A stretch of 64,000 nucleotides of DNA from an uncultured beta proteobacterium (GCA_963829415.1 CAWHII010000004.1:238783-302782), one strand, 5' to 3'; shown: positions 33,072 through 44,694, counted from the first letter of the stretch. Translations and numbers: made by a program. Notes: generated by a model from the letters alone, not told the origin.

Positions 33072-33740
33072 TCAGCCGATGTTCTGGCGCAGAAATGCAA
33101 GCGTGCGCTCGCGCGCCAGCCTGGCCGCCGGGGCGTCGAATGCGCCACGCTGGTCGCAATTGAAGCCGTGATCGGCCGGATAGAGGAACACCCGCGCGGA
33201 CGGATGTGCGGCAGCCAGCGCCTTCACGCCGGCCGCGGGGATATTCGCGTCGCGCTCGCCGAAGTGCGCCATGACCGGGCAGGTCGGCTGTTCCGCAATG
33301 GCATCGGTCATGCCGCCACCATAATACGGTACGGCACACGCAAAGCCCGGGAGGCGCGCAGCGGCGAGCCAGGCCAGGTATCCACCCCAGCAATAGCCGA
33401 TGACGCCGACCTTGCCAGTGCTCGCCACGCAGTCACGGGCAGCCGCCAGGTCGAGCAGCGCCGCGTCCGTCTTCGCGAGCCCCTTCAATTCCCGGCCGCG
33501 GGCAACGTCCGCTGGCGTATAGCCCAAGTCCACGTCGCGTTCATAGCGGTCGAAGAGCGCCGGTGCGACAGCTTCATATCCGTCGGCGGCAAAGCCGTCG
33601 CAGACGCTGCGGATATGGCTGTTGACGCCGAATATTTCCTGCGCGACGACGAGCGCGCCGCGCGGTGAACCCGCGGGCTTCGCACGATACGCCGAGAACC
33701 GGAAGCCGTCGGCTGCCGTCAGTTCAATCCACTCGCCCAT
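33072..33740 (-). CDS. Dienelactone hydrolase family protein
   Basis: QEIFGVN, GYCWGG nucleophile, HFGERD, HGFNCD. Confidence 0.93.
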   Translation of the reverse strand: MGEWIELTAADGFRFSAYRAKPAGSPRGALVVAQEIFGVNSHIRSVCDGFAADGYEAVAPALFDRYERDVDLGYTPADVARGRELKGLAKTDAALLDLAAARDCVASTGKVGVIGYCWGGYLAWLAAARLPGFACAVPYYGGGMTDAIAEQPTCPVMAHFGERDANIPAAGVKALAAAHPSARVFLYPADHGFNCDQRGAFDAPAARLARERTLAFLRQNIG

Positions 33741-33755
33741 GCCCGTACGGTCTTT

Positions 33756-34685
33756 TCAGGTGAAGAATATCCAGTAGAACAATCCGATCACAATGAGCCA
33801 CTTCAGCGCGTAATACAGCCCCCGGAAGCGGTGCTTGAGCGCCTTGCCGGGAACGCGCAGGTAATAGACCAGGCTGAAGAGGCGGTTGAGCCAGCCGACG
33901 TGGTCGCCGGCGATGTTCTCCGTCTGGCTCGCGCTGATGAACGTGTTCTTGTACCACTTGTTGATGCGGGTCATCACCCGGTTGGTCAGCGGCCTTTCGA
34001 CGTCGCAGAAGAAGATGACGCGCATCTGGTCGGTCTTGTTCTCGGCCCAGTGGAGGAACGTTTCGTCGAACATCACGGCCTCGCCGTCGCGCCAGTGGTA
34101 GGGGTGCCCATCGACGAAGATGTGGCAATCCTCCGAGTTCGGCGTCGAAAGGCCCAGGTGGTAGCGCAGCGAACCTGCAAAGGGATCGCGATGCTTGCCC
34201 AGCTTGCCGCCTGGCGGCAGCAACGCGAACATCGCGCCGTTGATCGCCGGGATGGACTGGACCAGTGCCACGGTCCTGGGACACAACGCCTGCGCCGAAG
34301 GCAACGGCTGGTCGTACCACTTGACGTAGAAGCGCTTCCAGCCGCGCCGGAAGAACGAGTTGAATCCGAGATCGTTGAACTTCGCCGTCCCCCGGATGTA
34401 CCCCTCGTCGAACAGCTGCAACGCTTCGTCGCGGAGCATCTGCCAGTTGTCGGTCACCGGTTTGAGATCGGGAAAGCGGTCGACGTCGATGAAAGGCCGG
34501 TTGGGCACTGCGGAGAAGAAATACATGAGCGCGTTGTACGGCGCCATGAACGTCGAATGGTCGGTGATCTGACGGTAGAACCGGATCCGGACGCTACCGC
34601 GGAAATGCACGAACAGGGCCGAGGCGAGGAACGCGTAGAGGATCGCCGCCTTCCAGTTGAGTAACATGTCGAGCATGGTCGCCAT
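33756..34685 (-). CDS. lpxO: LpxO-type lipid A 2-hydroxylase (Asp/Asn beta-hydroxylase family)
   Basis: HFRGSVR..RQITDHSTFMAPYN, FNSFF..GWKRFYVKWY, HRDPFAGSLRYHLGL, FDETFLH; terminal TM helices; start 34667-34685. Confidence 0.9.
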   Translation of the reverse strand: MATMLDMLLNWKAAILYAFLASALFVHFRGSVRIRFYRQITDHSTFMAPYNALMYFFSAVPNRPFIDVDRFPDLKPVTDNWQMLRDEALQLFDEGYIRGTAKFNDLGFNSFFRRGWKRFYVKWYDQPLPSAQALCPRTVALVQSIPAINGAMFALLPPGGKLGKHRDPFAGSLRYHLGLSTPNSEDCHIFVDGHPYHWRDGEAVMFDETFLHWAENKTDQMRVIFFCDVERPLTNRVMTRINKWYKNTFISASQTENIAGDHVGWLNRLFSLVYYLRVPGKALKHRFRGLYYALKWLIVIGLFYWIFFT

Positions 34686-34686
34686 G

Positions 34687-35928
34687 TTACGGCATCGCGG
34701 ACTTGCGCGGCTTGCGGGCCACGGATTTCCAGCGCCGATGCACCCAGTACCACTGCTCGGGACGCCGCAGGATGGCCCTTTCCAGAACGGCGTTGTATGC
34801 ACGCGTATTGAGGCGGATGGCCTCGCCCGTCTTTTCGCATTCGATGGGCGACATGGGCTCCTCGAAGCGCAGCACATGGTGTCCGTCGGGTTCGCGCCAA
34901 CTGGTCGCCGGCAGCACCGGCGCGCCGGTGGCAAGCGCGATGATCGCGAGGCTCTTGAACGTCCACGCGGGGTGGCCGAAAAAGTCGACCTCAATGCCAT
35001 CCGGCGGGCGCGCATGCTGATCGAAGGGGAACACGATCGCGTCCCCGGCACCCAGTCTATCAAGCATCGCATCGAGCGAGCCGCGCTTGGGGAAGACACC
35101 AAATCCGGCTTCGTTGAACCGCCGTGTGACGAGCGCATCGAGCCACTTGGGCTTGATCGCGCGCCGCACGAAATGGAACCTGCCGCGCATCTGCGGATAG
35201 TGGTTGAGGCCCGCGATGGTCGACACTTCCCAGTTGCCGAAGTGGCCGGTGAGAATGAGAACGCCCTTGTTCTGGCCCAGCGCGCTGGCAAAGGCGTCGA
35301 CATTCTCGATGCGCACCATGGCCATCTTCCGTTCGTGCGACAGCCAGCGGAACTTCAGGAACTCCACGAACAGCCGCCACAGATGCCCGTAATGCGCCTG
35401 TGCCAGCTGCACGATCTCGTCTTCGCCGATCCGTTCGCCGTAGACGAGGCGAAGGTTGTCGAGCATCACCTGTCGCCTTATCGGCAGGAACCGGAACAGG
35501 AATTTGCCGGCCCACGGCACCGCGATTGCGTCGTGTTCGGCCACCGCTACAGCCGACGCGCTCCCGCGATCATGCGAAAGCGAAATACCGATAGCCTTGA
35601 TGCGATAGCGCGCGAGCAGCGCCGCGGCGGCCGACCCGCACACCAGATTCGGCGCTCCATAGTCGTCGCGCGCCACCGAGAATTCGGCGGCCTCGATCTG
35701 ACCTAGCGCCGTTTCGCGCGGGAAGAGCTTCAGGCAGGCTTCCTTGGCCGCAAAACGAGCCGCGAGACTGGCCGAGCGGCCGGGACCGTCTCCGCTGTCC
35801 ATCAGCTCCTGCGGCGAAAAAAGTCTGGCGAGATCGGCCGCCGGCGTTTCCCGCAGCAGGCGCTCGATGCGCGAAATTTCCACGGTATCAATGCCGCAGC
35901 GACGGCTGGCGCCTGCAGGAACCGTCAT
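34687..35928 (-). CDS. Fusion of AcpS-type phosphopantetheinyl transferase and LpxL/HtrB-family acyltransferase
   Basis: N-terminal GIDTVEISRI..AARFAAKEACLK..ISLSHD; C-terminal NLRLVYG..LILTGHFGNWE..FPFDQH..RRPEQWYWVHRRWK; single open frame. Confidence 0.88.
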   Translation of the reverse strand: MTVPAGASRRCGIDTVEISRIERLLRETPAADLARLFSPQELMDSGDGPGRSASLAARFAAKEACLKLFPRETALGQIEAAEFSVARDDYGAPNLVCGSAAAALLARYRIKAIGISLSHDRGSASAVAVAEHDAIAVPWAGKFLFRFLPIRRQVMLDNLRLVYGERIGEDEIVQLAQAHYGHLWRLFVEFLKFRWLSHERKMAMVRIENVDAFASALGQNKGVLILTGHFGNWEVSTIAGLNHYPQMRGRFHFVRRAIKPKWLDALVTRRFNEAGFGVFPKRGSLDAMLDRLGAGDAIVFPFDQHARPPDGIEVDFFGHPAWTFKSLAIIALATGAPVLPATSWREPDGHHVLRFEEPMSPIECEKTGEAIRLNTRAYNAVLERAILRRPEQWYWVHRRWKSVARKPRKSAMP

Positions 35929-35940
35929 GGCCCCGCCGGC

Positions 35941-35976
35941 CTCCGTTGGCACCCCAGTTGGCACCTCAGTTGGCAC
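35941..35976. repeat. Three tandem 12-bp imperfect repeats
   Basis: CTCCGTTGGCAC / CCCAGTTGGCAC / CTCAGTTGGCAC. Confidence 0.8.
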
Positions 35977-35979
35977 ATC

Positions 35980-37254
35980 TCACGCGGCACGCACAAGCAG
36001 CGCCGCGTCGGTGCCGCCGAATCCCCGGCACAGGACCAATGCGATCTTGCTGCGCGGTGCCTGCGGCGATGTGGATACCGAAACGCCGGCACAGTCCGGA
36101 TCGAGTTCCCGGAGCGTTGCCACGCCAGGCACGACGCCCTCGGCCAGCGCCACGAGCGCCAGTGTCGCCTCGAGAATTCCGGCTGCGGCGATCAGGTGCC
36201 CGAACGACCACTTGAACGCGGTCACGGGCGGCACGTCTGCCCCGAACACGGTCCGGATCGCAGCGGCTTCGGACGCGTCCGACGGCCTCGTGCCGTTGCC
36301 ATGCGCGACGATCATCCCGACATCGGCTGCATGGATCTTCGCATCGTCCAGCGCGGCCGCGATGGCCCGCGCAAGCCCGTCGCCGTCGTCGCGGATTGCG
36401 AGCAGGCCGGTCGCCTCCGAGACCTGGCCGCCACCCAGCACTTCACCCAGCACTTTCGCATTGCGCGCTGCGGCGGACGCCTCCAGCTCCATCACCAGCG
36501 CGCCCGCGCCTTCGCCGAAGACGCTGCCGTCACGCGTGACGTCGAAGGGGCGCAACGTCTGCGACGCAATCAATCCGAGGCGATAGTAGTACAGCACCAT
36601 CTGCGGCTCGATCGGCGCATCGTGACCCACGGCAACGACGCGGTCCGCTTCGCCATTGCGCAGTGCCTCCATGCCCTCGATCACCGCCAGCGAGCCGCTG
36701 CAGCTGTGACTGGTAATGCACGCGTTGCTGCCTTTCAGTCCGTATTTGATGCCGATGTGCCCGAGCACGTTGTTGGGCAGCGAGCGCAGCAGCCACATCG
36801 GATTCACGGTGTTGGCCAGCTCCCGCCCGAATTCCGGCATGCTGCCGTTGGCCGTGGCCAGCAGCGGGAAATAATCGTACTGATTCTCGAAATTGCCGCT
36901 GCCCGAGCCGACGTAGACGCCCGTGCGGTCGCTGAATGTCGCGGCGGCATCGGCCGCCAGCGATTCGCGATGTGAGACCAGGCCTGCGGCTTCGATCGCG
37001 CGGCCGGCAGCATAAAGCCCGAAGAGGTCCGTGCGCCGGATCAGCTTGTGCAGCTTGCGATCGTCGACCATTTCGCGTGCGTTGAAATTGGCGACCTCGC
37101 CGGCCATCCGCGTCGGCCACAGCGCCGCGTCCCATTGCTGAATCGGTGCGATCGACGACGTGCCGGCCCGCGCCGCGGCGAAGATGTCGCCCGGGCTCTT
37201 GCCGCCCGAACACACGGCACCGGTGGCCGTGATCACGATGCGCGGCGCGCTCAA
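35980..37254 (-). CDS. Beta-ketoacyl synthase-like protein with Ser at the catalytic Cys position
   Basis: RIVITATGAV, GSNACITSHSCSG in place of G.....TACxSG, AHGNGT and GHLIAAAG retained; TTG start at 37254 inferred. Confidence 0.85.
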   Translation of the reverse strand: MSAPRIVITATGAVCSGGKSPGDIFAAARAGTSSIAPIQQWDAALWPTRMAGEVANFNAREMVDDRKLHKLIRRTDLFGLYAAGRAIEAAGLVSHRESLAADAAATFSDRTGVYVGSGSGNFENQYDYFPLLATANGSMPEFGRELANTVNPMWLLRSLPNNVLGHIGIKYGLKGSNACITSHSCSGSLAVIEGMEALRNGEADRVVAVGHDAPIEPQMVLYYYRLGLIASQTLRPFDVTRDGSVFGEGAGALVMELEASAAARNAKVLGEVLGGGQVSEATGLLAIRDDGDGLARAIAAALDDAKIHAADVGMIVAHGNGTRPSDASEAAAIRTVFGADVPPVTAFKWSFGHLIAAAGILEATLALVALAEGVVPGVATLRELDPDCAGVSVSTSPQAPRSKIALVLCRGFGGTDAALLVRAA

Positions 37255-37258
37255 CGGA

Positions 37259-37445
37259 CCCCCACGCTTGCGGCCACCGAAAATGAGGCCGCCGCGCTGC
37301 CCCCGGCGGGGGAGTAATTCCGTGCGGCCTCCTTTGGGTCGCGGGAACTCCGAAGCGATCCCGTTTCGGCCACCGCCCGCACTCGCGGCCGCGCGCTGCG
37401 CGCCTGGGCTTCGCCCCGCTCGTGCAGGTGTCCTCGGGACGGCCC
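37259..37445 (-). repeat. REP-like GC-rich palindromic intergenic element
   Basis: Minus strand begins GGGCCGTCCC, contains hairpin CCCCCGCCGGGGG-CAGCG (37300-37312), ends GCGTGGGGG just before the TTG start. Confidence 0.45.
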
Positions 37446-37453
37446 TGCCGCGC

Positions 37454-38770
37454 TCACGTCGACTCGCTTTCCACGGCGGCGTCCGTTTCTTCCGGATTGC
37501 GCAGCACAATGCAGCTGTTGGAACCGCCGAAACCGAACGAATTGGACATGGTCATGCGCACGCGCTGGCGTCGCGGCGTGTCGCGCACGAAATTGAGATC
37601 GCAGTCGGGATCGACTTCGCGCAGGTTCGCGTTGATCGGCATCATGCCGTCGCGAATCGCCAGCGCGCAGATCGCGACCTCGACCGCACCTGCCGCCGCG
37701 ATCAGGTGTCCCATCGTGCTCTTGGTCGAGCTGACCGAGAGTGCCGCGACGCGCGGGCCGAAGACCGCTTTCACCGCGGCGCTCTCGCTGCGATCGTTCA
37801 TGCCGGTGGACGTGCCGTGCGCGTTCAGGTAATCGATATCGGCAGGTGTTGCGCCCGCGCTCCACAAGGCCTGCCGCATCGCCTGGATCGGACCGTCGCC
37901 GTCCGGCGGCGAATCGGTGATGCGATAACTGGACAGCGAATTGCCGTCGCCCGCCAGCTCGGCGTAGATGCGTGCGCCGCGCTTGCGCGCCGCATGCCAT
38001 TCCTCGAGCACCAGGAATCCCGCGCCTTCCCCCAGCAGGAAGCCGTTGCGCGTCACGTCGAACGGGCGGCTCGCGCGCTGCGGCGCGGCGTTGTCCGGCG
38101 ACAACGCCGACAGCAGGCAAAAGCCGCTGATGCCGACAGGACTGATCATCGAATCGAACCCGCCGGCGAGAACATGGTCGACTGCGCCGCGACGGATCAA
38201 TTTCATCGCGGTGCCCAGCGCCTGGCCACCGGATGCACAGGCGGTGTGCACCGCGGACGCATAACCACGTATGCCGTGACGGCGCGTGATGAGCGACAAA
38301 CCCGCTGCGCAGTTGCTGCGGCAAAATGCCACAGGGTCGTTGGCCGGACCGTCTGTCAGCAGCAGGTCCGAATGGAGGACGCCGTCCGCGGCCGAATGCG
38401 TTTGCGTCCCGGCGAGGTCCGCGAAGTCCACGCCCATCATGCCTGCACCAAGAGTGCATCCCCAGCGCGTCGCATCGGCTTCCGTCGGGCGAATGCCGGC
38501 ATCGCGCAGCGCCTGTTCCGCGGCAGCGAGCGCAAAGCGATGGGAACGATTGGTGAGCTTGAGCAGCTTTCGGTCTCCGATCTGCGCGACTTCGTCGAAA
38601 CCCTTCACCTCCGCCGCGATGTGCACCGGAAAGCCGCTGGCGTCGAACACGGTGATCTGTGCCCCGCCACTTCTGCCATGGAGGACCGCATCCCACGTCG
38701 TGGCGACGTCGTTGCCGACGGGTGTCACCAGCCCCAACCCCGTTATCGCAACTCGTTTGCGCGCGGTCAT
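37454..38770 (-). CDS. fabF: Beta-ketoacyl-ACP synthase II (FabF-like), intact Cys-His-His triad
   Basis: RVAITGLGLVTPVGN, HTACASG, NAHGTST, STKSTMGHLIAAAG, SNSFGFGG. Confidence 0.92.
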   Translation of the reverse strand: MTARKRVAITGLGLVTPVGNDVATTWDAVLHGRSGGAQITVFDASGFPVHIAAEVKGFDEVAQIGDRKLLKLTNRSHRFALAAAEQALRDAGIRPTEADATRWGCTLGAGMMGVDFADLAGTQTHSAADGVLHSDLLLTDGPANDPVAFCRSNCAAGLSLITRRHGIRGYASAVHTACASGGQALGTAMKLIRRGAVDHVLAGGFDSMISPVGISGFCLLSALSPDNAAPQRASRPFDVTRNGFLLGEGAGFLVLEEWHAARKRGARIYAELAGDGNSLSSYRITDSPPDGDGPIQAMRQALWSAGATPADIDYLNAHGTSTGMNDRSESAAVKAVFGPRVAALSVSSTKSTMGHLIAAAGAVEVAICALAIRDGMMPINANLREVDPDCDLNFVRDTPRRQRVRMTMSNSFGFGGSNSCIVLRNPEETDAAVESEST

Positions 38771-38774
38771 GGCA

Positions 38775-39626
38775 TCAGGGAGCTGGCTTGAGAAACTCGA
38801 CCCGCGCCGTGGCAATGGTCTTGCCGTTGCGGTCGCGCGCGCTCAGGGAAATCCGCGTCGTGCCATCCTGCGTGCCCGCGAATTCCGCACGGCTATCGAC
38901 CTCCTGGCCCGGCAGGATGAATGCGCGCATCTTCACGTGGGTCATGCGCACCGGCACAGGATCCGGCCCTTCCTGCCCGGCGTTTGCCTCGCGCGCAAGT
39001 TGCGTGGCCAATGCGATCTGCGCATTGAGCAGGAGCGTAGCCGGAAACACCGGGCGGCGCGGGAAATGGTCGGCAAAGAATGGGGTTGATGCGGGAACGT
39101 GCAGCGTTGACCGCACCAATTTTCCCGGAATGTGCTCGACAGTTTCGACGGCAGGTTCGGCAACGCCATGGAAACGATCGACTGGCGCGCCTGCTCCCCG
39201 CAACAACGCAAAGCGCTGCTGCAAGAGTTCAGGCGCGTCGAAATCGGCCACGGGCAGCATGGGGCCCAGGCAGTCGTTCAATTCGATCACCGCCCTCCCG
39301 TTCACCGAGGCTTCGCCGCGATAGGACACGGCGTCATCGTCGACTTCGTCAATGACAACCGAAAGGTGAATGTCGTCGCCCGGCGCCACGTCGCCCAGGA
39401 AGCGTGTCTCGCCGGCGAGTGCGGCGACCGGCCGTCCACGGTAACCGATATATTCCATCGAGACCCAGGCTGCAAGCTGGCCGACCGCTTCCGCGACGAG
39501 GCACGCCGGAAACACGCGAATCGCGGCTGGCACGTGAAAAATGCCGCGCGCGCTCGTTCCTGGCGTGAATTCCGTGATGCGGTCGACAAAGGAAAACGCG
39601 GCGAAATGGTCGATTGGGTCAGCCAT
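38775..39626 (-). CDS. Tandem (double hot-dog) FabZ-like dehydratase
   Basis: Domain 1 FSFVDRI..FPACLVAEAVGQ; domain 2 FFADHFPRRPVFPATLLLNAQ. Confidence 0.82.
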   Translation of the reverse strand: MADPIDHFAAFSFVDRITEFTPGTSARGIFHVPAAIRVFPACLVAEAVGQLAAWVSMEYIGYRGRPVAALAGETRFLGDVAPGDDIHLSVVIDEVDDDAVSYRGEASVNGRAVIELNDCLGPMLPVADFDAPELLQQRFALLRGAGAPVDRFHGVAEPAVETVEHIPGKLVRSTLHVPASTPFFADHFPRRPVFPATLLLNAQIALATQLAREANAGQEGPDPVPVRMTHVKMRAFILPGQEVDSRAEFAGTQDGTTRISLSARDRNGKTIATARVEFLKPAP

Positions 39627-39641
39627 GGGCTCCGCGCGCCT

Positions 39642-40067
39642 TCAGCCCGCCGCGCGGGCTTCGTGCTGCGCCTGGACTACAAGCTTGCAAAAGGTTTCCG
39701 GCGTGAACAGGCGCGGAATGTCCTTGACCTTCATCGGATCGGCGAAGCGTTCGGCGGGGATTTCCGACAGGTACGAGCGCAGTTGCGAAAGTCCGGTCGC
39801 GGACAGTACGCCCTTCTGCTCGAACTCGGCTTCGGTCAGGCTGCCGCGCGCGTTGTCGATGATCTTGCCGCGCGGAATCTTGATCTTGAACGCACGCTCC
39901 AGGCGGAACACCATGTCGAGGAAGTCGATCGACTCGGCGTCCAGCCCTTCGATCAGCGACACGTCGAGCTTGATGTCGGCGACATCGCAACCCAGCGCAT
40001 CGGCCATCGTTTCCGCCACGGTCGGGAACACCGCGTTGATCTCGTCCTTGGTGATTTCTTTTGCCAT
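39642..40067 (-). CDS. Elongated acyl carrier protein (141 aa)
   Basis: LDAESIDFLDMVFRLERAFKIKI with phosphopantetheine Ser, then a ~55 aa insertion before the terminal TPETFCKLV helix. Confidence 0.88.
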   Translation of the reverse strand: MAKEITKDEINAVFPTVAETMADALGCDVADIKLDVSLIEGLDAESIDFLDMVFRLERAFKIKIPRGKIIDNARGSLTEAEFEQKGVLSATGLSQLRSYLSEIPAERFADPMKVKDIPRLFTPETFCKLVVQAQHEARAAG

Positions 40068-40074
40068 CGTTGCC

Positions 40075-40833
40075 TCACTCCATTTTGAAGCCGCCATCGA
40101 TATTGATGATCTGGCCGGTGACATAATCGGCAAAGCGCGAGGCCAGGAACCATACCGCGTAGGCCACTTCCTCGGGCTTGCCATACCGCTTGAGCAGGAT
40201 GCGCGCCTTGACGGCATCGCCCGCCAGCTCGCGCACTTCCTGCGACATTTCCGTTTCGATCACGCCAGGCGCGACCGCGTTGACCGTGATCTTCCGCGGC
40301 GCGAGTTCGACGGCCAGCGAGCGGGTGAAGGCGTTGATCGCGCCTTTGCTTGCCGCGTAGTTGGTCTGGCCGCGACCGCCCTTCTCACCTGCCACCGAGC
40401 TCAGGTTGATGATCTTGCCGCCGCGCTGCACGATCATGTGCGGCGCCACCGCGCGCACGACGTTGAACACCCCGCCGACGTTCGTGTCCAGCACGACTTG
40501 CACGTCGTCGTCGTCCATCGCCGCCAGTTGGTTGTCGCGAATCATCCCGGCGTTGTTGACGAGTATGTCGATCCGGCCGCAGCGCTCGGCGACGCGATCC
40601 ACCGCCGCTGCGCACGCGCGGGAGTCGCGGATGTCCACCTGTTCCATGGCGACCTTCCCCCCGCTCGCCGTGCCCGCGGCAGCGACCTCTGCCGCCGCCG
40701 CCGCGTTGTCGCGATAGAAAAACGTCACGTCGACGCCTTCCCCGGCCAGCAACAGGACAATGGCACGGCCGATGCCGCGGCTGCCGCCGGTCACGATCGC
40801 CACTTTGCCCGAGAGACCTGGGTCCATCGTCAT
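40075..40833 (-). CDS. fabG: 3-oxoacyl-ACP reductase (FabG-like)
   Basis: TGGSRGIG, NNAG, GQTNYAASKGA, VNAVAPGVIETEM. Confidence 0.9.
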   Translation of the reverse strand: MTMDPGLSGKVAIVTGGSRGIGRAIVLLLAGEGVDVTFFYRDNAAAAAEVAAAGTASGGKVAMEQVDIRDSRACAAAVDRVAERCGRIDILVNNAGMIRDNQLAAMDDDDVQVVLDTNVGGVFNVVRAVAPHMIVQRGGKIINLSSVAGEKGGRGQTNYAASKGAINAFTRSLAVELAPRKITVNAVAPGVIETEMSQEVRELAGDAVKARILLKRYGKPEEVAYAVWFLASRFADYVTGQIINIDGGFKME

Positions 40834-40840
40834 CCCGGCA

Positions 40841-41596
40841 TCAGCCCGAAATCGCGAAACCGCCATCGACGACCAGCGTGTGGCCGTTGATCATGCCGGC
40901 TTCGGGCAGGCACAGGAGGAATACGGCGCCCGCGACATCCTGCGGGGTCAGCACCGGACCCGCGGGCGTGCGCTGCGAAAAATTGGCAAGCAATTCCTCG
41001 CGGTTGGGAAAGTACTGCAGCGCGTCGGTGTCGACCACGCCCGCGCTCACTGTATTCACGCGGATGCCGCGAGGCCCCAACTCCTGCGCCAGCGCGCGCA
41101 CCAGCGCCTCGAGCGCGGCCTTGGACGCGCCGATGAAGCCGTAGCCGGGCATCGCGCGCTGCGCACCCAGGCTCGACAACGCAATGATGCGCGCGCCGGG
41201 AGGCATGAGCGGCAAGCCCCGTTGCGTAAGGAGATTCAGGGCCAGCGCGTTGGTCTCCATGCACCAGCGCCAGTGCTTCAGTGTCATGTCGACCGTGGGT
41301 TTGAGCACACCACTGGCTGCATTGCTGACCAGAATGTCGAGCCGATCGAAATGCTTGCCGAATTCGGTGAAGATCTCATCGACGCTGTCCGGAATGCCGA
41401 CGCTCCCGGCGATGGCGCAGGCACGCCGGCCCAGCGCGCGCATCTCCTTGCACAACGCTTCCGCTTCGTCGGCGCTGTTGTAATAGTTGACGGCAACGTC
41501 GCAACCTTCGCGGGCGAGCTTCAACGCAATTGCGCGCCCGATACCGCGGGCCGCGCCGCTGACGAGCGCCACTTTGCCGGTCAATGCGCCTGCCAT
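40841..41596 (-). CDS. fabL: Enoyl-ACP reductase, FabL type
   Basis: NAASGVLKP, SSLGAQR, YGFIGASKAALE, GVVDTDALQYFPNREELL, closely matching Bacillus FabL motifs as recalled. Confidence 0.8.
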   Translation of the reverse strand: MAGALTGKVALVSGAARGIGRAIALKLAREGCDVAVNYYNSADEAEALCKEMRALGRRACAIAGSVGIPDSVDEIFTEFGKHFDRLDILVSNAASGVLKPTVDMTLKHWRWCMETNALALNLLTQRGLPLMPPGARIIALSSLGAQRAMPGYGFIGASKAALEALVRALAQELGPRGIRVNTVSAGVVDTDALQYFPNREELLANFSQRTPAGPVLTPQDVAGAVFLLCLPEAGMINGHTLVVDGGFAISG

Positions 41597-41664
41597 GATG
41601 GAGGTCTCGAAAGTCCGGCCCGTTCCTGTATCCGGCAACAGGCCGGTCGGGACAGGCAAAACCG

Positions 41665-42990
41665 CTATTCTACCGTGCCCACCCCTGCCGACTGGCCCAA
41701 GGTCGTCAGGCATTGTCGAAGGTCGGCCGCTATCTTATCAACCGTCCCATCCTCGAACGCCCCGGTACGGTAGGAGATGCCGGCTTCCAGCGCGCCCCCG
41801 GCCGTGGTCACGGCAACCACCATGGGCGCCAGGGGCCCGGTCGACACGCCGCGCACATACGCGGGCGCTGGGCCGTACGCGCCGCCCTCCTGCCAAAGCG
41901 CATCGACGTTGAGCATGGTGACGCCGACCCAGACCGGCCAGTTCTTGACGTGAAAGCGCTGTCTTTGTTCCAGACCCAGGAAGCGCCACACGATGCCGCT
42001 GTAGAACATCACGACCAGCGTCTGGAGGTATAGCCGACGTCTTTTCCATTCCGCGGACTGCACATGGATGTCCTGCGCCAGCTCACGCAACCCCACTCCT
42101 TCAGGAACCCGGTGCGCGACCCGGAAGGAACTCAGGAACTGTCCAAACCACGCGCGCGCATCGGCCCCGACGTCGTTGCGGATGTTGATGATCGACGCTG
42201 CGGCCAGGTAGACGCGTCGCCGCGCCGTCAGCCTCTTTTCGGCCAGCGGAGAGAGTGTCTGGAGCATGACCGCGATGATCAGGTCGTTGAGCGTCACATT
42301 CCACGCCTTCGCCGTACGCAGTACCGCGGCGAATTCGGATGGGCCAAGCCGCACGGACGTGAAGCCGTTGGTCGGGTCGGGCCAGCGCAGGTATCGCGGG
42401 CGATGCGAGTGCCGGCAATTCAATGCCAGACGGGGCAGGCTCGGCAAACCGCGCAGCACCGCGCCCGCGTGGCGCCACAGCAGGCGCCGGAACGTGTCCG
42501 GGTATAGACCGGGCACAGCCTGCGGCGGCGGCGCGCTCCCATTGGCCGCATATCGGGCGACGATCGCCTGGAGCAGCAGCGCGATCGAGTCGCCGCCCGC
42601 GACGAAATGATCGTAAGCGAGGGCAAACTCGAACGTCGCTCCCGCGTCGACCGCGAAAAATCGGAAGGGATCGATGGCCCCGTCGGCGGGAAACGGGTTG
42701 TTCAGCTGGCGTTCGATTTCCGCGCGCAGGACACCCCGCGGATCCGCACCGCCGGGCAGGACCGGCAGCGCAAAGCGTGCCTCGCCTCCGGCATATTCGT
42801 AGCGGCCGCGCACAGCGTCCAGCGTGAGGTGGGTGAGGCCGCGTGCCTCGAGCTCGCCCCTGATCGCGGCGCCGAGACGCACGGCATCGAGGGGCGCGGC
42901 GACATGGACCGCATGCACCGCGCTGTACGGATGCAACTCGCGCCAGCGCAGCATGGTCACCTGGAACAGGTTCAGCGTGCCCCGCATCAT
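41665..42990 (-). CDS. Condensation-domain/PapA5-like CoA-dependent acyltransferase-fold protein with altered motif
   Basis: YDHFVAGGDS at the HHxxxDG position, WNVTLNDLIIA, INIRN, GQFLSSF; ATGA overlap with upstream gene. Confidence 0.68.
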   Translation of the reverse strand: MMRGTLNLFQVTMLRWRELHPYSAVHAVHVAAPLDAVRLGAAIRGELEARGLTHLTLDAVRGRYEYAGGEARFALPVLPGGADPRGVLRAEIERQLNNPFPADGAIDPFRFFAVDAGATFEFALAYDHFVAGGDSIALLLQAIVARYAANGSAPPPQAVPGLYPDTFRRLLWRHAGAVLRGLPSLPRLALNCRHSHRPRYLRWPDPTNGFTSVRLGPSEFAAVLRTAKAWNVTLNDLIIAVMLQTLSPLAEKRLTARRRVYLAAASIINIRNDVGADARAWFGQFLSSFRVAHRVPEGVGLRELAQDIHVQSAEWKRRRLYLQTLVVMFYSGIVWRFLGLEQRQRFHVKNWPVWVGVTMLNVDALWQEGGAYGPAPAYVRGVSTGPLAPMVVAVTTAGGALEAGISYRTGAFEDGTVDKIAADLRQCLTTLGQSAGVGTVE

Positions 42991-43999
42991 TGACTTTCCG
43001 GAGTCCGCAGCACTTGCTGCGCCGATTGGCACCAATGCTGTTTCACGCTGTACCAGATGTCGGCAGCGTGCAACAGGTTGGTGGTGTCGACCCCGGCCGC
43101 GTCAGGCAGCGCCACGGCGGCGTCCGGCGACCAGGAGTCGATCCACTTGCGCGTGACTTCGTTGGTCGCGAGGTTCAGGGTGTCCGGGATGCGGATGTGG
43201 CCGGTGACGGCAGGCAAGGTGACATTGCGCACGCGTGCCGTACCGATGGCCACGTACGGCTCGGGGTCGCCGAACGTTCCCGCAATGGGGTCCCAGGGTA
43301 TCGAAAATCCGGTGAAGTCTTCGGCAGTATCCGGAATCCTGCGCAACTTCGCGATCATGTCCCATTGACCCAGAAATATTCGCGGCAGCTTGCCTGTCGC
43401 CATGGCTGTTGCATAGCCGACGGTGAGACCCTTGACCGGGCGCGTGGCGCCGGTGCGCGGATCGCGAATCGTCGTGCGCGCCAGGGCGTCGCCCGCGAGC
43501 GGATTCCAGACCGGAATGGTCTCGTGGAAAGCCCCGTTCAACTCGTACAGGATACGGATCGCCATCATTCCGCCCTGGCTATGGCCGATCAGCATCGGCA
43601 TCATGCCTTCGGATTCGTAATACCACGCCAGCATTCCCGCCCACTTGAGGCTGTCGCCGAAACTTCCCTGCGACAAACTGCCGTCGCGGGGATCGCGGAT
43701 CTGCTGCTCCGGATAACCCATGGCGATCAGGAAGTGGGCGAACGGCTCCATGGTCACCACGGCGAGGCTGCCCTGGAACAGGATGATCCGCGGTGCCGGA
43801 CCCGGCGCCAGCAGCCGGGCCACGTCGGCGGAACCGACGTGCCGGCAATCGAGCGCGAGAAGGCTGCGGATGCCTGCAGCGTCCAGCTCGTGTGCAGGTT
43901 GCAATGGCGGATCGTCCGCAGCCGACGCACCGCCGGCGACAGGCAAGTCAACAGCGCGCAGAGTAGCGAACCGAGCAGCGCACGGCGCGGGAGTGACAT
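42987..43999 (-). CDS. Secreted alpha/beta hydrolase; signal peptide separated by an apparent 1-nt deletion near 43930
   Basis: ATG 43999 gives MSLPRRALLGSLLCALLTCLSPA, which joins GASA-ADDPP in the main frame; GHSQGG nucleophile. Confidence 0.72.
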
Positions 44000-44079
44000 C
44001 GAAGGGCGTTGCCGGAATCGGATCGGGATCCTCCTTCGTGCATTGTCGCAACGGGTAGAAGGGCTCCTACTGACTACCG

Positions 44080-44694
44080 TCAAGATATGCGGGGAAAGAA
44101 CCTTCCGGTCCGTTGCACGTAGCGGGAATAGTCGTCGGGTTGCGTTTGCAGCAGATGTCGCTCCTCGTTGCGCGCTTTCACGTTCATCAACGCGATGTGC
44201 GCCAATGCAACCGTTACCATCGGCAGCGTCGGCACCACGACCACGGTACAGATCATGAGCAGTATCTGAAAGGCGTAGATCGGGTGGCGGATGCGGCGGA
44301 ACGGCCCGTCGGTGATGAGATTGGTCTTCTCGTCGACGGCCACCGCCATCCGCCAATCCTTGCCCATGCGCGCCCAGCATCGCGCCGTAGCGATCAGGCA
44401 GAGCACCGCGACGATCGCGGCCAGCCAGCGGCATGCGCCGTAGACGGGCATCTGAGACGCAAATGCCGGTATCGCCAGCGGTAGGCGGGTTCCCGTTTGG
44501 GCGAGCCATGGCAGGATGATCCAGAGAGCGACCACCGGGACGAAGATCGCCCCCATGAAGCGTTCCAACGGCTGCTTCGGCGACAGAATGGGTATGTCGC
44601 GGGAATGCCGTTTCACCCGGACGATCATCATTCCGACTCCGAACCAATAGGCACAGATCGTTGCGGTAATGATGGCGGCAGGCAGATCGTTCAT
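44080..44694 (-). CDS. Isoprenylcysteine carboxyl methyltransferase / PEMT-family membrane methyltransferase
   Basis: TM helices, LITDGPFRRIRHPIY, EERHL, RFFP. Confidence 0.88.
   Translation of the reverse strand: MNDLPAAIITATICAYWFGVGMMIVRVKRHSRDIPILSPKQPLERFMGAIFVPVVALWIILPWLAQTGTRLPLAIPAFASQMPVYGACRWLAAIVAVLCLIATARCWARMGKDWRMAVAVDEKTNLITDGPFRRIRHPIYAFQILLMICTVVVVPTLPMVTVALAHIALMNVKARNEERHLLQTQPDDYSRYVQRTGRFFPRIS

What the first reader, a model, noticed from the sequence alone, without database searches (positions are those of the whole stretch)
33756..44694. Self-contained 11-gene type II fatty-acid and lipid-tailoring cluster, probably building a special lipid A-type acyl chain
Seen, all on the minus strand and mostly abutting: ICMT-like methyltransferase, secreted hydrolase, condensation-fold protein, FabL, FabG, elongated ACP, double hot-dog dehydratase, FabF, Cys-to-Ser KAS, AcpS-LpxL fusion, LpxO. 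It has a full reductive cycle and its own ACP-activating enzyme, but no FabD, FabH or acyl-CoA ligase. Established: rhizobia add a very-long-chain hydroxy fatty acid to lipid A using acpXL-fabZXL-fabF2XL-fabF1XL-adhA2XL-lpxXL, and LpxO 2-hydroxylates secondary acyl chains. Inference: an analogous but differently composed system (FabG/FabL, extra transferase, hydrolase, methylase, hydroxylase) making an unusual acylated envelope lipid. I do not recognise it as a named cluster.
Basis: partly seen in the sequence, partly recalled or inferred. Interest (0 to 1): 0.85.

Follow-up and report, generated by a model that had tools for sequence, protein, structure and literature searches.

The report
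Private fatty-acid factory for lipid A
This is a real, conserved eleven-gene operon that builds a special fatty acid on its own carrier protein and most likely attaches it to the outer-membrane lipid A; it is an untested, expanded relative of the rhizobial and Legionella very-long-chain fatty-acid gene sets, with three unstudied tailoring enzymes added.

Summary
All eleven minus-strand genes are present as described (33756-44694). One correction: the exported hydrolase has its signal peptide in another frame.

The core is long ACP, double hot-dog dehydratase, KS, Cys-less KS and LpxL-type acyltransferase. This is the gene order of the rhizobial acpXL-fabZXL-fabF2XL-fabF1XL-lpxXL cluster. The same module, including the unusual ACP of about 140 aa, recurs in Casimicrobiaceae, Verrucomicrobiales MAGs and about eight gammaproteobacterial families. 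One carrier is Legionella jamestowniensis, and Legionella lipid A carries C27-C30 fatty acids.

Other pointers to lipid A: an LpxO-like gene close to the NCBIfam LpxO model, MsbA and O-antigen-ligase-like neighbours in relatives, and one genome where the condensation-like gene is coupled to that genome's only stand-alone LpxL genes.

Three parts are confined to Casimicrobiaceae: an ICMT-like methyltransferase, a free-standing condensation-fold protein, and two exported serine hydrolases of a family with no Pfam model. Their role is unknown.

No function has been tested anywhere, and the acceptor lipid is inferred. This scan has met the same system several times on other DNA, with concordant readings. 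It is a new variant of a known kind, of moderate interest.

The parts
44080..44694 (-). Gene 01: ICMT/PEMT-family integral-membrane SAM methyltransferase (204 aa)
   Evidence: PF04140 41 bits and PF04191 31 bits. NCBIfam isoprenylcysteine methyltransferase 77 bits, below the cut-off of 160. Lies directly upstream of 02-03 in 69 of 70 loci.
42987..43999 (-). Gene 02: exported serine hydrolase of a family without a Pfam model. In this window the signal peptide is frameshifted relative to the body.
   Evidence: No Pfam or NCBIfam hit. Invariant GHSQGG, D206, D219 and H250 across 17 sequences. Orthologues carry signal peptides and the paralogue carries a lipobox. AF2 pLDDT 89, but only weak alpha/beta-hydrolase matches (E >= 4.5e-3, TM <= 0.37). 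Frameshift.
41665..42990 (-). Gene 03: free-standing condensation-fold (NRPS C-domain-like) acyltransferase, motif DHFxAGGDS
   Evidence: AF2 pLDDT 84; Foldseek PDB hits to C, Cy and E domains at E about 1e-18. Catalytic His invariant. Distant family members carry xHxxxD(G/S) and hit PF00668 and PF16911.
40841..41596 (-). Gene 04: enoyl-ACP reductase FabL
   Evidence: NF005975 335 bits, above the cut-off of 328. 66% identical to the Verrucomicrobiales orthologue.
40075..40833 (-). Gene 05: 3-oxoacyl-ACP reductase FabG
   Evidence: NF009466 244 bits, above the cut-off of 222.
39642..40067 (-). Gene 06: dedicated ACP of 141 aa, with an insertion of about 50 aa after helix II
   Evidence: PF00550. 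The full-length long form is conserved: 58% identity in Verrucomicrobiales and 54% to Legionella jamestowniensis WP_058450069.1.
38775..39626 (-). Gene 07: double hot-dog 3-hydroxyacyl-ACP dehydratase with one composite active site
   Evidence: PF07977 with two stretches. The C-terminal half aligns to FabZ with His kept and Glu changed to Asn; the N-terminal half keeps LVAEAVGQ.
37454..38770 (-). Gene 08: FabF-type ketosynthase with an intact Cys-His-His triad
   Evidence: NF005589 420 bits, above the cut-off of 387. The HTACASGG motif is found in 61 loci.
35980..37254 (-). Gene 09: KS-like partner without the catalytic Cys (Ser here), with His, His and Lys kept
   Evidence: Alignments. Ser in all 34 Casimicrobiaceae orthologues scanned. 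Ala or Gly in Legionella-type and a Chromatiales-like genome, Cys in Verrucomicrobiales. 33% identical to gene 08.
34687..35928 (-). Gene 10: AcpS (holo-ACP synthase) fused to an LpxL-family acyltransferase, HX4E motif GHFGNWE
   Evidence: PF01648 plus PF03279. TIGR00556 55 bits, above the cut-off of 45. The fusion recurs in thousands of metagenomic proteins. The unfused orthologue in Legionella is 41% identical over the LpxL domain.
33756..34685 (-). Gene 11: LpxO-like Fe(II)/2-oxoglutarate acyl 2-hydroxylase (accessory)
   Evidence: PF05118 157 bits. NF033391 LpxO 438 bits (cut-off 500) against OlsC 111 bits. Present after gene 10 in 33 of 54 loci.

Best explanation
[quoted passage not shown] All steps below are inferred except the presence of motifs and families.
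1. The AcpS domain of gene 10 phosphopantetheinylates the unusual 141-aa ACP.
2. The genome's single housekeeping FabD loads malonate.
3. KS (gene 08) works with the Cys-less KS-like partner (gene 09). The partner keeps both His and the Lys, so it can act as a chain-length or initiation factor, possibly decarboxylating malonyl-ACP to prime synthesis. That would explain the lack of FabH.
4. FabG, the single-site double hot-dog dehydratase and FabL complete each cycle, giving a saturated long acyl-ACP.
5. The LpxL domain (GHFGNWE) transfers the chain as a secondary ester-linked acyl group onto lipid A at the cytoplasmic face.
6. Where present, the LpxO-like enzyme 2-hydroxylates it.
7. The Casimicrobiaceae-specific add-ons then decorate or remodel the product. 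The condensation-fold enzyme makes a further ester or amide from an ACP thioester. The ICMT-like enzyme methylates a phosphate (as LmtA does) or a carboxylate. After export, the periplasmic and lipoprotein serine hydrolases deacylate, transacylate or de-esterify.
For: Families, motifs and gene order.

Conservation:
- 56 of 61 loci keep genes 04-10 in order.
- The module keeps the same order at 48-66% identity in Verrucomicrobiales MAGs.
- It occurs in 11 of 400 gammaproteobacterial genomes.
- One carrier is Legionella jamestowniensis: its ACP is named, and its LpxL orthologue lies 3.5 kb downstream.

Literature:
- Legionella lipid A carries ester-linked 27-oxo-28:0, 27-OH-28:0 and dioic C27/C29 acids (PMC7867332).
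- The five-gene set ACP, dehydratase, two KS and LpxXL is described as common to bacteria with VLCFA lipid A (PMC5613085).

LPS context:
- MsbA (TIGR02203, 711 bits) and Wzy_C/GT25 genes lie beside the cluster in L098, L026, L087 and L051.
- An O-antigen-type gene set follows the module in L110.
- In genome G803 the condensation-like gene overlaps the stop of the second of two LpxL-family genes. Those two are that genome's only stand-alone PF03279 genes.
- Gene 11 is far closer to LpxO than to OlsC.

The genome has its own housekeeping LpxL pair, AcpS, AcpP, FabF, FabD and FabH elsewhere, so this set is an extra system.
Against: - No member of this module has been tested genetically or biochemically. 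Legionella papers treat lpg0361 and lpg0362 as generic FabB-like proteins.
- The LpxL domain is no closer to solved lipid A acyltransferases (LpxM, 37 bits) than to the glycolipid acyltransferase PatA (49 bits).
- The ACP is not specifically AcpXL-like (2KW2 25 bits, below generic ACPs).
- All NCBIfam LpxL and LpxO equivalog cut-offs are missed.
- Chain length cannot be read from sequence.
- The condensation-fold enzyme has no obvious job in known lipid A chemistry.
- The MsbA/WaaL-like neighbourhood is seen in only a few loci and not in this window.
Confidence: 0.6

Rival explanations
1. The private fatty-acid synthase feeds a different envelope lipid, for example an ornithine-lipid-like acyloxyacyl aminolipid or a glycolipid. 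In that scheme the condensation-fold enzyme N-acylates an amino acid or amine with 3-hydroxyacyl-ACP (the OlsB role). The LpxL domain adds the piggy-back acyl chain (the OlsA role). The LpxO-like enzyme 2-hydroxylates it (the OlsC role). The ICMT-like enzyme methyl-esterifies the free carboxylate.
For: - Every tailoring enzyme gets a chemically natural role. ICMT substrates are lipidated amino acids with a free carboxylate (established knowledge).
- The 01-02-03 unit behaves as a separable module.
- The LpxL domain's best solved relative is PatA, a glycolipid acyltransferase.
- PF05118 also contains OlsC.
Against: - Gene 11 scores 438 bits on LpxO and only 111 on OlsC.
- The core module exists without genes 01-03 in Legionella-type and Verrucomicrobiales genomes.
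- The LPS-related neighbours and the coupling to LpxL genes in G803 point to lipid A.
Confidence: 0.25
2. The cluster makes a released or signalling lipid, such as a fatty-acid methyl ester or an N-acyl amino-acid methyl ester. The exported hydrolases would turn it over.
For: - A carboxyl-methyltransferase family, a condensation-type enzyme and exported esterase-like proteins are adjacent.
- Methyl-ester lipid signals are known in Burkholderiales (own knowledge: Ralstonia 3-OH-PAME).
Against: - There is no thioesterase or exporter in the cluster.
- The off-loading enzyme of the conserved core is a membrane-lipid acyltransferase family.
- In Verrucomicrobiales the module sits in a stable housekeeping neighbourhood.
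Confidence: 0.08
3. It is an aryl-polyene or other type II PKS pigment cluster.
For: Weak hits of the dehydratase to ApeI-like, of FabG to the flexirubin SDR, and of the KS pair to cispentacin AmcF. The KS plus Cys-less KS pair resembles KS-CLF.
Against: - A bona fide FabL enoyl reductase is present.
- There is no adenylating enzyme, ammonia lyase, glycosyltransferase, LolA-like or MMPL gene.
- The genome and relative L098 carry a separate APE-type set: a PRK08905 acyltransferase, an ACP and a KS.
Confidence: 0.03

Closest known systems
Rhizobial acpXL-fabZXL-fabF2XL-fabF1XL-(adhA2XL)-lpxXL cluster (27-OH-C28:0 on lipid A; PMC11901934, PMC5613085, PMC4402001)
   Same: Same order of a dedicated ACP, a hot-dog dehydratase, two FabF-like KS genes and an LpxL-family acyltransferase. 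Same logic of a private ACP feeding a late lipid A acyltransferase.
   Different: - ACP of 141 aa with a large insertion, against about 92 aa in rhizobia.
- Fused double hot-dog dehydratase.
- Own FabG and FabL.
- AcpS fused to the acyltransferase.
- No Zn-dependent alcohol dehydrogenase.
- NCBIfam cut-offs of the candidate alphaproteobacterial models are not reached.
- Extra methyltransferase, condensation-fold enzyme, exported hydrolases and LpxO.
Legionella-type module: L. jamestowniensis locus found here, equated with L. pneumophila lpg0358-lpg0363. The locus tags come from earlier scan notes and from annotations in PMC9112007 and PMC13200437.
   Same: - Orthologous long ACP (54% identity).
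- Double hot-dog dehydratase, KS and Cys-less KS (Ala in Legionella).
- LpxL orthologue (41% identity, GHFGNWE) in the same order.
- The host genus has C27-C30 fatty acids on lipid A.
   Different: - In Legionella the acyltransferase is not fused to AcpS.
- The SDR genes are variable.
- Genes 01-03 and 11 were not seen in the short stretches of the Legionella-type loci retrieved here.
- The function is untested there too.
Type II PKS / aryl-polyene KS-CLF pairs
   Same: A catalytic KS is paired with a paralogue lacking the nucleophilic Cys but keeping the His-His decarboxylation residues.
   Different: The partner carries Ser, Ala or Gly rather than Gln, and Cys in Verrucomicrobiales. A full reductive cycle is present, so the product is saturated.
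Lipid A tailoring enzymes LpxO, LmtA and AlmG (PMC4402001)
   Same: - Gene 11 is close to LpxO.
- LmtA is a membrane SAM-dependent enzyme that methylates the lipid A 1-phosphate (PMC4402001). Its kinship to the ICMT/Ste14p family is my own knowledge.
- AlmG adds glycine to a lipid A acyl chain (PMC4402001). That it is an LpxL-family enzyme fed by a dedicated carrier protein is my own knowledge.
   Different: Orthology of gene 01 to LmtA was not tested because no sequence was available. Gene 11 is just below the LpxO equivalog cut-off.
Free-standing condensation-type acyltransferases (VibH, PapA5) and the mycobacterial PapA/Chp logic
   Same: Full C-domain fold with the catalytic His. Distant family members hit PapA_C. 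A cytoplasmic C-type acyltransferase is combined with exported alpha/beta-hydrolase-type enzymes.
   Different: Sequence identity is only 12-18% to solved C domains. The motif is DHxxxGGD instead of HHxxxDG. The substrates are unknown.

Membership tests
acpXL-lpxXL very-long-chain fatty acid/lipid A cluster (Rhizobiales) | Co-directional dedicated ACP, hot-dog dehydratase, two FabF-like KS genes and an LpxL-family acyltransferase, in that order | tested here: met
   Genes 06-10. The order is kept in 56 of 61 loci. The five-gene definition comes from PMC5613085.
acpXL-lpxXL very-long-chain fatty acid/lipid A cluster (Rhizobiales) | Orthology to AcpXL (about 92 aa, one extra helix), single hot-dog FabZXL and LpxXL | tested here: not met
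   The ACP is 141 aa. The AcpXL-type structure 2KW2 scores 25 bits, below generic ACPs. The dehydratase is a fused double hot-dog. No NCBIfam ACP, KS or LpxL equivalog cut-off typical of alphaproteobacteria is reached. Rhizobial sequences themselves were not available for direct comparison.
acpXL-lpxXL very-long-chain fatty acid/lipid A cluster (Rhizobiales) | The product is a C26-C34 (omega-1)-functionalised acyl chain ester-linked to lipid A | not testable with these tools
   Needs lipid A mass spectrometry. No cultured carrier of the eleven-gene form was identified.
Legionella-type long-ACP module (lpg0359-lpg0363-like) | ACP of about 135-145 aa with the conserved insertion after helix II | tested here: met
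   54% identity over residues 7-139 to WP_058450069.1 of Legionella jamestowniensis.
Legionella-type long-ACP module (lpg0359-lpg0363-like) | Double hot-dog dehydratase, KS, Cys-less KS and an orthologous LpxL with GHFGNWE, downstream in the same order | tested here: met
   LpxL domain identity is 40-42%, against 22-27% to other LpxL paralogues.
Aryl-polyene cluster | No enoyl reductase; presence of an adenylating enzyme, a glycosyl- or acyltransferase pair, and LolA-like/MMPL export genes | tested here: not met
   FabL is above its equivalog cut-off. None of those families occurs in the eleven genes. A separate APE-like set exists in the genome.
LpxO (lipid A 2-hydroxylase) | NCBIfam NF033391 equivalog score of at least 500 bits | tested here: not met
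   438 bits over the full length; OlsC model 111 bits; PF05118 157 bits. It is close to the family but below the curated cut-off.
NRPS condensation-domain superfamily | Two-lobe CAT-like fold with a catalytic His in an HHxxxDG-type motif | tested here: met
   The fold is met and the His is invariant. The Asp position is Gly in this subfamily and Asp in distant members. Pfam PF00668 scores only 17 bits, below its cut-off.
ICMT family / LmtA-type lipid A methyltransferase | PF04140 domain; orthology to Leptospira LmtA | tested here: inconclusive
   PF04140 41 bits, above the cut-off of 24. The isoprenylcysteine methyltransferase equivalog scores 77, below 160.

The most novel reading that the evidence does not exclude
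The Casimicrobiaceae-specific trio forms a previously unknown decoration and remodelling pathway for an outer-membrane lipid. The trio is the ICMT-like methyltransferase, the free-standing condensation-fold acyltransferase, and the two exported serine hydrolases of a family with no Pfam model and no close solved structure.

Two versions are possible. One is a tertiary ester or amide substituent on the special acyl chain combined with a 'methylate, export, de-esterify' step. The other is that the whole operon makes a new acyloxyacyl aminolipid rather than modified lipid A.
Probability: 0.3. Interest if true: 0.75.

Novelty: new variant of a known kind. Interest (0 to 1): 0.55.

Why it matters
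Very-long-chain fatty acids on lipid A stiffen the outer membrane and matter for intracellular life in rhizobia, Brucella and Legionella. Yet only the rhizobial genes have been studied. In the papers I could read, the Legionella genes have never been linked to its hallmark C27-C30 acids.

This module offers a concrete candidate. It is self-sufficient: it has its own ACP, its own ACP activator, a reductive cycle and a transferase. It should therefore be portable into E. coli K-12, which makes the question directly testable.

The added enzymes in this window could reveal how tertiary substituents on lipid A acyl chains are made. These are a stand-alone condensation enzyme, a membrane methyltransferase and a new exported hydrolase family. 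For Bradyrhizobium lipid A the enzymes for further acylation steps are explicitly unknown (PMC5613085).

Tried and rejected
- A Caballeronia megaplasmid hit covered 85% of the fusion. It proved to be a lone LpxL-like gene with no cluster.
- Distant homologues of the condensation-like protein lie in unrelated, orphan contexts and gave no functional hint.
- Exact-sequence look-ups of the L051 and L079 genes failed because my gene boundaries did not match the called genes.
- Foldseek gave no convincing structural relative for the hydrolase.
- A draw of 300 genomes from the phylum of G803 found no further fusion carriers.
- Draws of 400 Pseudomonadota genomes found neither the fusion nor the hydrolase family.
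- Promoter and terminator scans were at chance level. The repeat scan showed only the KS/KS-like paralogy.
- The genes that replace LpxO downstream of gene 10 (amidohydrolase, MaoC and others) are not conserved and I judged them not to be part of the system.
- The original LmtA paper is not held.
I could therefore not lay out the whole genome, fetch long regions of relatives, or check the gene 02 frameshift or expression against reads.

Full report
OBSERVATION

The window has about 64% G+C, so I chose open reading frames by codon-position G+C and by start context. Eleven minus-strand genes fill 33756-44694. Pfam and NCBIfam scans give, in transcription order:
- 01, an ICMT/PEMT-family membrane methyltransferase.
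- 02, a protein with a GHSQGG nucleophile elbow and no family hit.
- 03, a protein with only a faint Condensation hit.
- 04, FabL (above its equivalog cut-off).
- 05, FabG.
- 06, a 141-aa ACP.
- 07, a two-domain FabA/FabZ-type dehydratase.
- 08, a FabF-type KS.
- 09, a second KS-like protein.
- 10, an AcpS-LpxL fusion.
- 11, an LpxO-like dioxygenase.

Intergenic gaps are 80 (28 from the in-frame TTG at 44051), -4, 68, 7, 7, 15, 4, 199, 51 and 1 nt. The next gene, a dienelactone hydrolase at 33072-33740, accompanies the cluster only in the closest relatives, so I do not count it. Upstream, a DUF1631 gene runs divergently.

One correction concerns gene 02. Its signal peptide begins at the ATG at 43999 but lies in another frame than the body. 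All orthologues have an in-frame signal peptide. I therefore infer a 1-nt indel, either real or an assembly error.

IS IT MORE THAN CHANCE?

The condensation-like protein is found in 24 of 24 sampled genomes of the same genus, and in none of 16 other families of the order. A pattern scan of species genomes returned 172 relatives. Nearly all of the best 80 are MAGs labelled Casimicrobiaceae, Burkholderiales or Betaproteobacteria. Mapping the window's proteins onto those loci gave these counts:
- 56 of 61 loci with enough sequence keep genes 04-10 in order.
- 69 of 70 have 01-02 directly upstream of 03.
- 61 carry a second hydrolase paralogue right after 03.
- LpxO follows gene 10 in 33 of 54.

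Protein identities fall to 45-60% and the flanks differ, so the linkage is selected. In the window's own subclade the second hydrolase (a lipoprotein with the lipobox IGAGC) has moved to another contig rather than been lost. In two genomes the 01-02-03 unit and the synthase unit lie apart but both are present. The operon is therefore built of two modules.

THE PARTS

KS pair. Gene 08 has the HTACASGG site. Gene 09 aligns Ser to the catalytic Cys and keeps both His and the Lys. Ser is found in all 34 Casimicrobiaceae orthologues scanned. The same position is Ala or Gly in Legionella-type and a Chromatiales-like genome, and Cys in Verrucomicrobiales. Loss of the nucleophile is thus common but not universal. 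By analogy with chain-length factors and KS-Q domains (established knowledge), such a partner can decarboxylate malonyl-ACP and shape chain length. That would explain the missing FabH.

Dehydratase. The C-terminal hot-dog aligns to FabZ with His kept and the catalytic Glu replaced by Asn. The N-terminal hot-dog keeps the Glu helix. This leaves one composite active site.

ACP. It carries an insertion of about 50 residues after helix II. Solved ACPs align only to residues 13-84.

Fusion. An AcpS domain (above the TIGR00556 cut-off) is joined to an LpxL-family domain with GHFGNWE. Its best solved relatives are PatA (49 bits) and LpxM (37 bits).

Gene 03. The AlphaFold model (pLDDT 84) is a complete NRPS condensation fold. 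Foldseek E-values are about 1e-18 to C, Cy and E domains, and the best TM-score is 0.74 to AzeD. The family is small: 1289 representatives at E <= 0.001 among 1.84 billion. Distant members carry the canonical xHxxxD(G/S) motif and hit PF00668 and PapA_C. This subfamily reads DHFxAGGDS, with the His invariant.

Genes 02 and 02'. Both are exported. They have invariant GHSQGG, two Asp and one His. The model is confident (pLDDT 89) but has only weak alpha/beta-hydrolase matches, so this is a new family.

Gene 11. It scores 438 bits on the NCBIfam LpxO equivalog (cut-off 500) and 111 on OlsC.

THE REST OF THE GENOME

The genome has a housekeeping fabH-fabD-acpP-fabF cluster with a single FabD. It also has a canonical AcpS, two tandem stand-alone LpxL genes, three further LpxO-like genes, and a separate APE-like set of ACP, acyltransferase and KS. 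The cluster is therefore an extra, orthogonal system. It must borrow FabD.

WIDER DISTRIBUTION

In samples of 400 genomes each, the condensation-like protein, the hydrolase family and close relatives of the fusion were found only in Casimicrobiaceae within Burkholderiales and Pseudomonadota.

The synthase module is much wider. A MAG labelled Verrucomicrobiales (G803) has the KS-like gene and the fusion (51-54% identity). A protein search from its fusion returned about 2500 fusion proteins, many named Verrucomicrobiales or Verrucomicrobiota. Four such loci show SDR(s), an ACP of 136-144 aa, a double hot-dog, KS, KS and the fusion in the same order. Identities to the window are 48-66%. Three of them lie just downstream of pheT, a housekeeping neighbourhood, and one of those is followed by an O-antigen-type gene set.

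Prompted by it, I searched 400 genomes of the class with the long ACP. Eleven genomes in about eight families have it, followed by the double hot-dog and KS and often preceded by FabL and FabG. One of these ACPs is WP_058450069.1 of Legionella jamestowniensis, named AcpXL in UniRef. In that genome an unfused LpxL orthologue (41% identity over the LpxL domain, GHFGNWE) lies exactly one dehydratase and two KS genes downstream.

The literature agrees with this. It lists lpg0359 as a putative ACP, lpg0361 and lpg0362 as FabB-like, and lpg0363 as WaaM, a lipid A acyltransferase, in L. pneumophila. No specific function is assigned to them (PMC13200437, PMC9112007). Legionella lipid A carries ester-linked 27-oxo-28:0, 27-OH-28:0, 29-oxo-30:0 and C27/C29 dioic acids (PMC7867332).

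WHAT IT MOST LIKELY DOES

The five-gene core (ACP, dehydratase, KS, KS, LpxL-type transferase) has the order of the rhizobial acpXL-fabZXL-fabF2XL-fabF1XL-lpxXL cluster, which makes and transfers 27-OH-C28:0 to lipid A (PMC11901934, PMC5613085, PMC4402001). I add four further observations:
- the Legionella orthologues;
- the LpxO-like gene;
- MsbA (711 bits on TIGR02203) and Wzy_C/GT25 neighbours in four Casimicrobiaceae loci;
- genome G803, where the condensation-like gene overlaps the stop of the second of two LpxL genes, which are that genome's only stand-alone ones.

The best reading is therefore a private synthase for a special, probably long, saturated acyl chain. The LpxL domain transfers this chain to lipid A, and the chain is 2-hydroxylated where LpxO is present. 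I put this at 0.6. Shown here: gene families, motifs, order, conservation, orthology to the Legionella locus and genomic context. Inferred: every enzymatic step, the chain length and the acceptor.

The main rival (0.25) is another envelope lipid, for instance an acyloxyacyl aminolipid. In that scheme the condensation enzyme, the LpxL domain, the LpxO-like enzyme and the ICMT-like enzyme would play the roles of OlsB, OlsA, OlsC and a carboxyl methylase. It fits the tailoring genes neatly. It fits less well with the LpxO score, the LPS neighbours, and the existence of the core without genes 01-03. A released methyl-ester lipid (0.08) and an aryl-polyene or PKS product (0.03) are less likely.

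COMPARISON AND NOVELTY

The system works like acpXL-lpxXL but fails tests of strict membership. The ACP is long, the dehydratase is a double hot-dog, there is no Zn-dependent alcohol dehydrogenase, and no equivalog cut-off is met. It is a member of the wider Legionella-type long-ACP module.

This scan has met the module several times on other DNA, with concordant conclusions, and I found no paper describing it. The parts particular to this lineage are the AcpS fusion (shared with Verrucomicrobiales and a Chromatiales-like genome), the Ser variant of the KS partner, and the tailoring trio with its new hydrolase family. I class it as a new variant of a known kind, with interest 0.55.

LIMITS

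Whole-genome layout, long regions of relatives, read support for the frameshift and expression data could therefore not be obtained.

Noticed in passing
window 43900-44000 (gene 02): The signal peptide of the exported hydrolase (ATG at 43999) is in a different frame from the mature part. A 1-nt indel is implied in a G+C-rich stretch (gccggcgg). It may be a long-read assembly error or a real inactivation.
   Followed up: partly
window 37255-37453: A 199-nt spacer lies between the KS and the KS-like gene. Most relatives have 5-100 nt there, and the KS-like frame stays open through it. No repeat or structure was identified.
   Followed up: partly
G000:C5:36.3-37.6 kb (locus L102 1129-2415): The lipoprotein paralogue of the exported hydrolase sits inside the operon in most relatives. 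In this genome it lies alone between a PLP-dependent Cys/Met enzyme and a BON-LysM protein.
   Followed up: yes
G000:C2:1286103-1299739: Three further LpxO-like (PF05118) genes lie within 14 kb on another contig. This suggests a second lipid-hydroxylation locus.
   Followed up: no
G000:C2:942167-944880: The two tandem stand-alone LpxL genes lie next to a PP-binding (ACP-like) match and the canonical AcpS.
   Followed up: no
G000:C1:1392222-1399277; L098 19368-21293: A separate aryl-polyene-type set (PRK08905 acyltransferase, short ACP, KS) is present. In relative L098 it lies only about 7 kb downstream of the cluster.
   Followed up: partly
L079 947-4144 (genome G803, MAG labelled Verrucomicrobiales): The condensation-like gene overlaps the stop of the second of two LpxL-family genes, and RecG follows. 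No hydrolase-family gene was found in that genome.
   Followed up: yes
L040, L069, L072, L084 downstream of gene 10: In one subclade an amidohydrolase (PF01979) takes the place of LpxO after the fusion gene.
   Followed up: partly
window 33072-33740: A dienelactone-hydrolase gene lies 15 nt after the LpxO-like gene on the same strand. It is conserved there only in the closest relatives, and TRAP transporter genes follow.
   Followed up: partly
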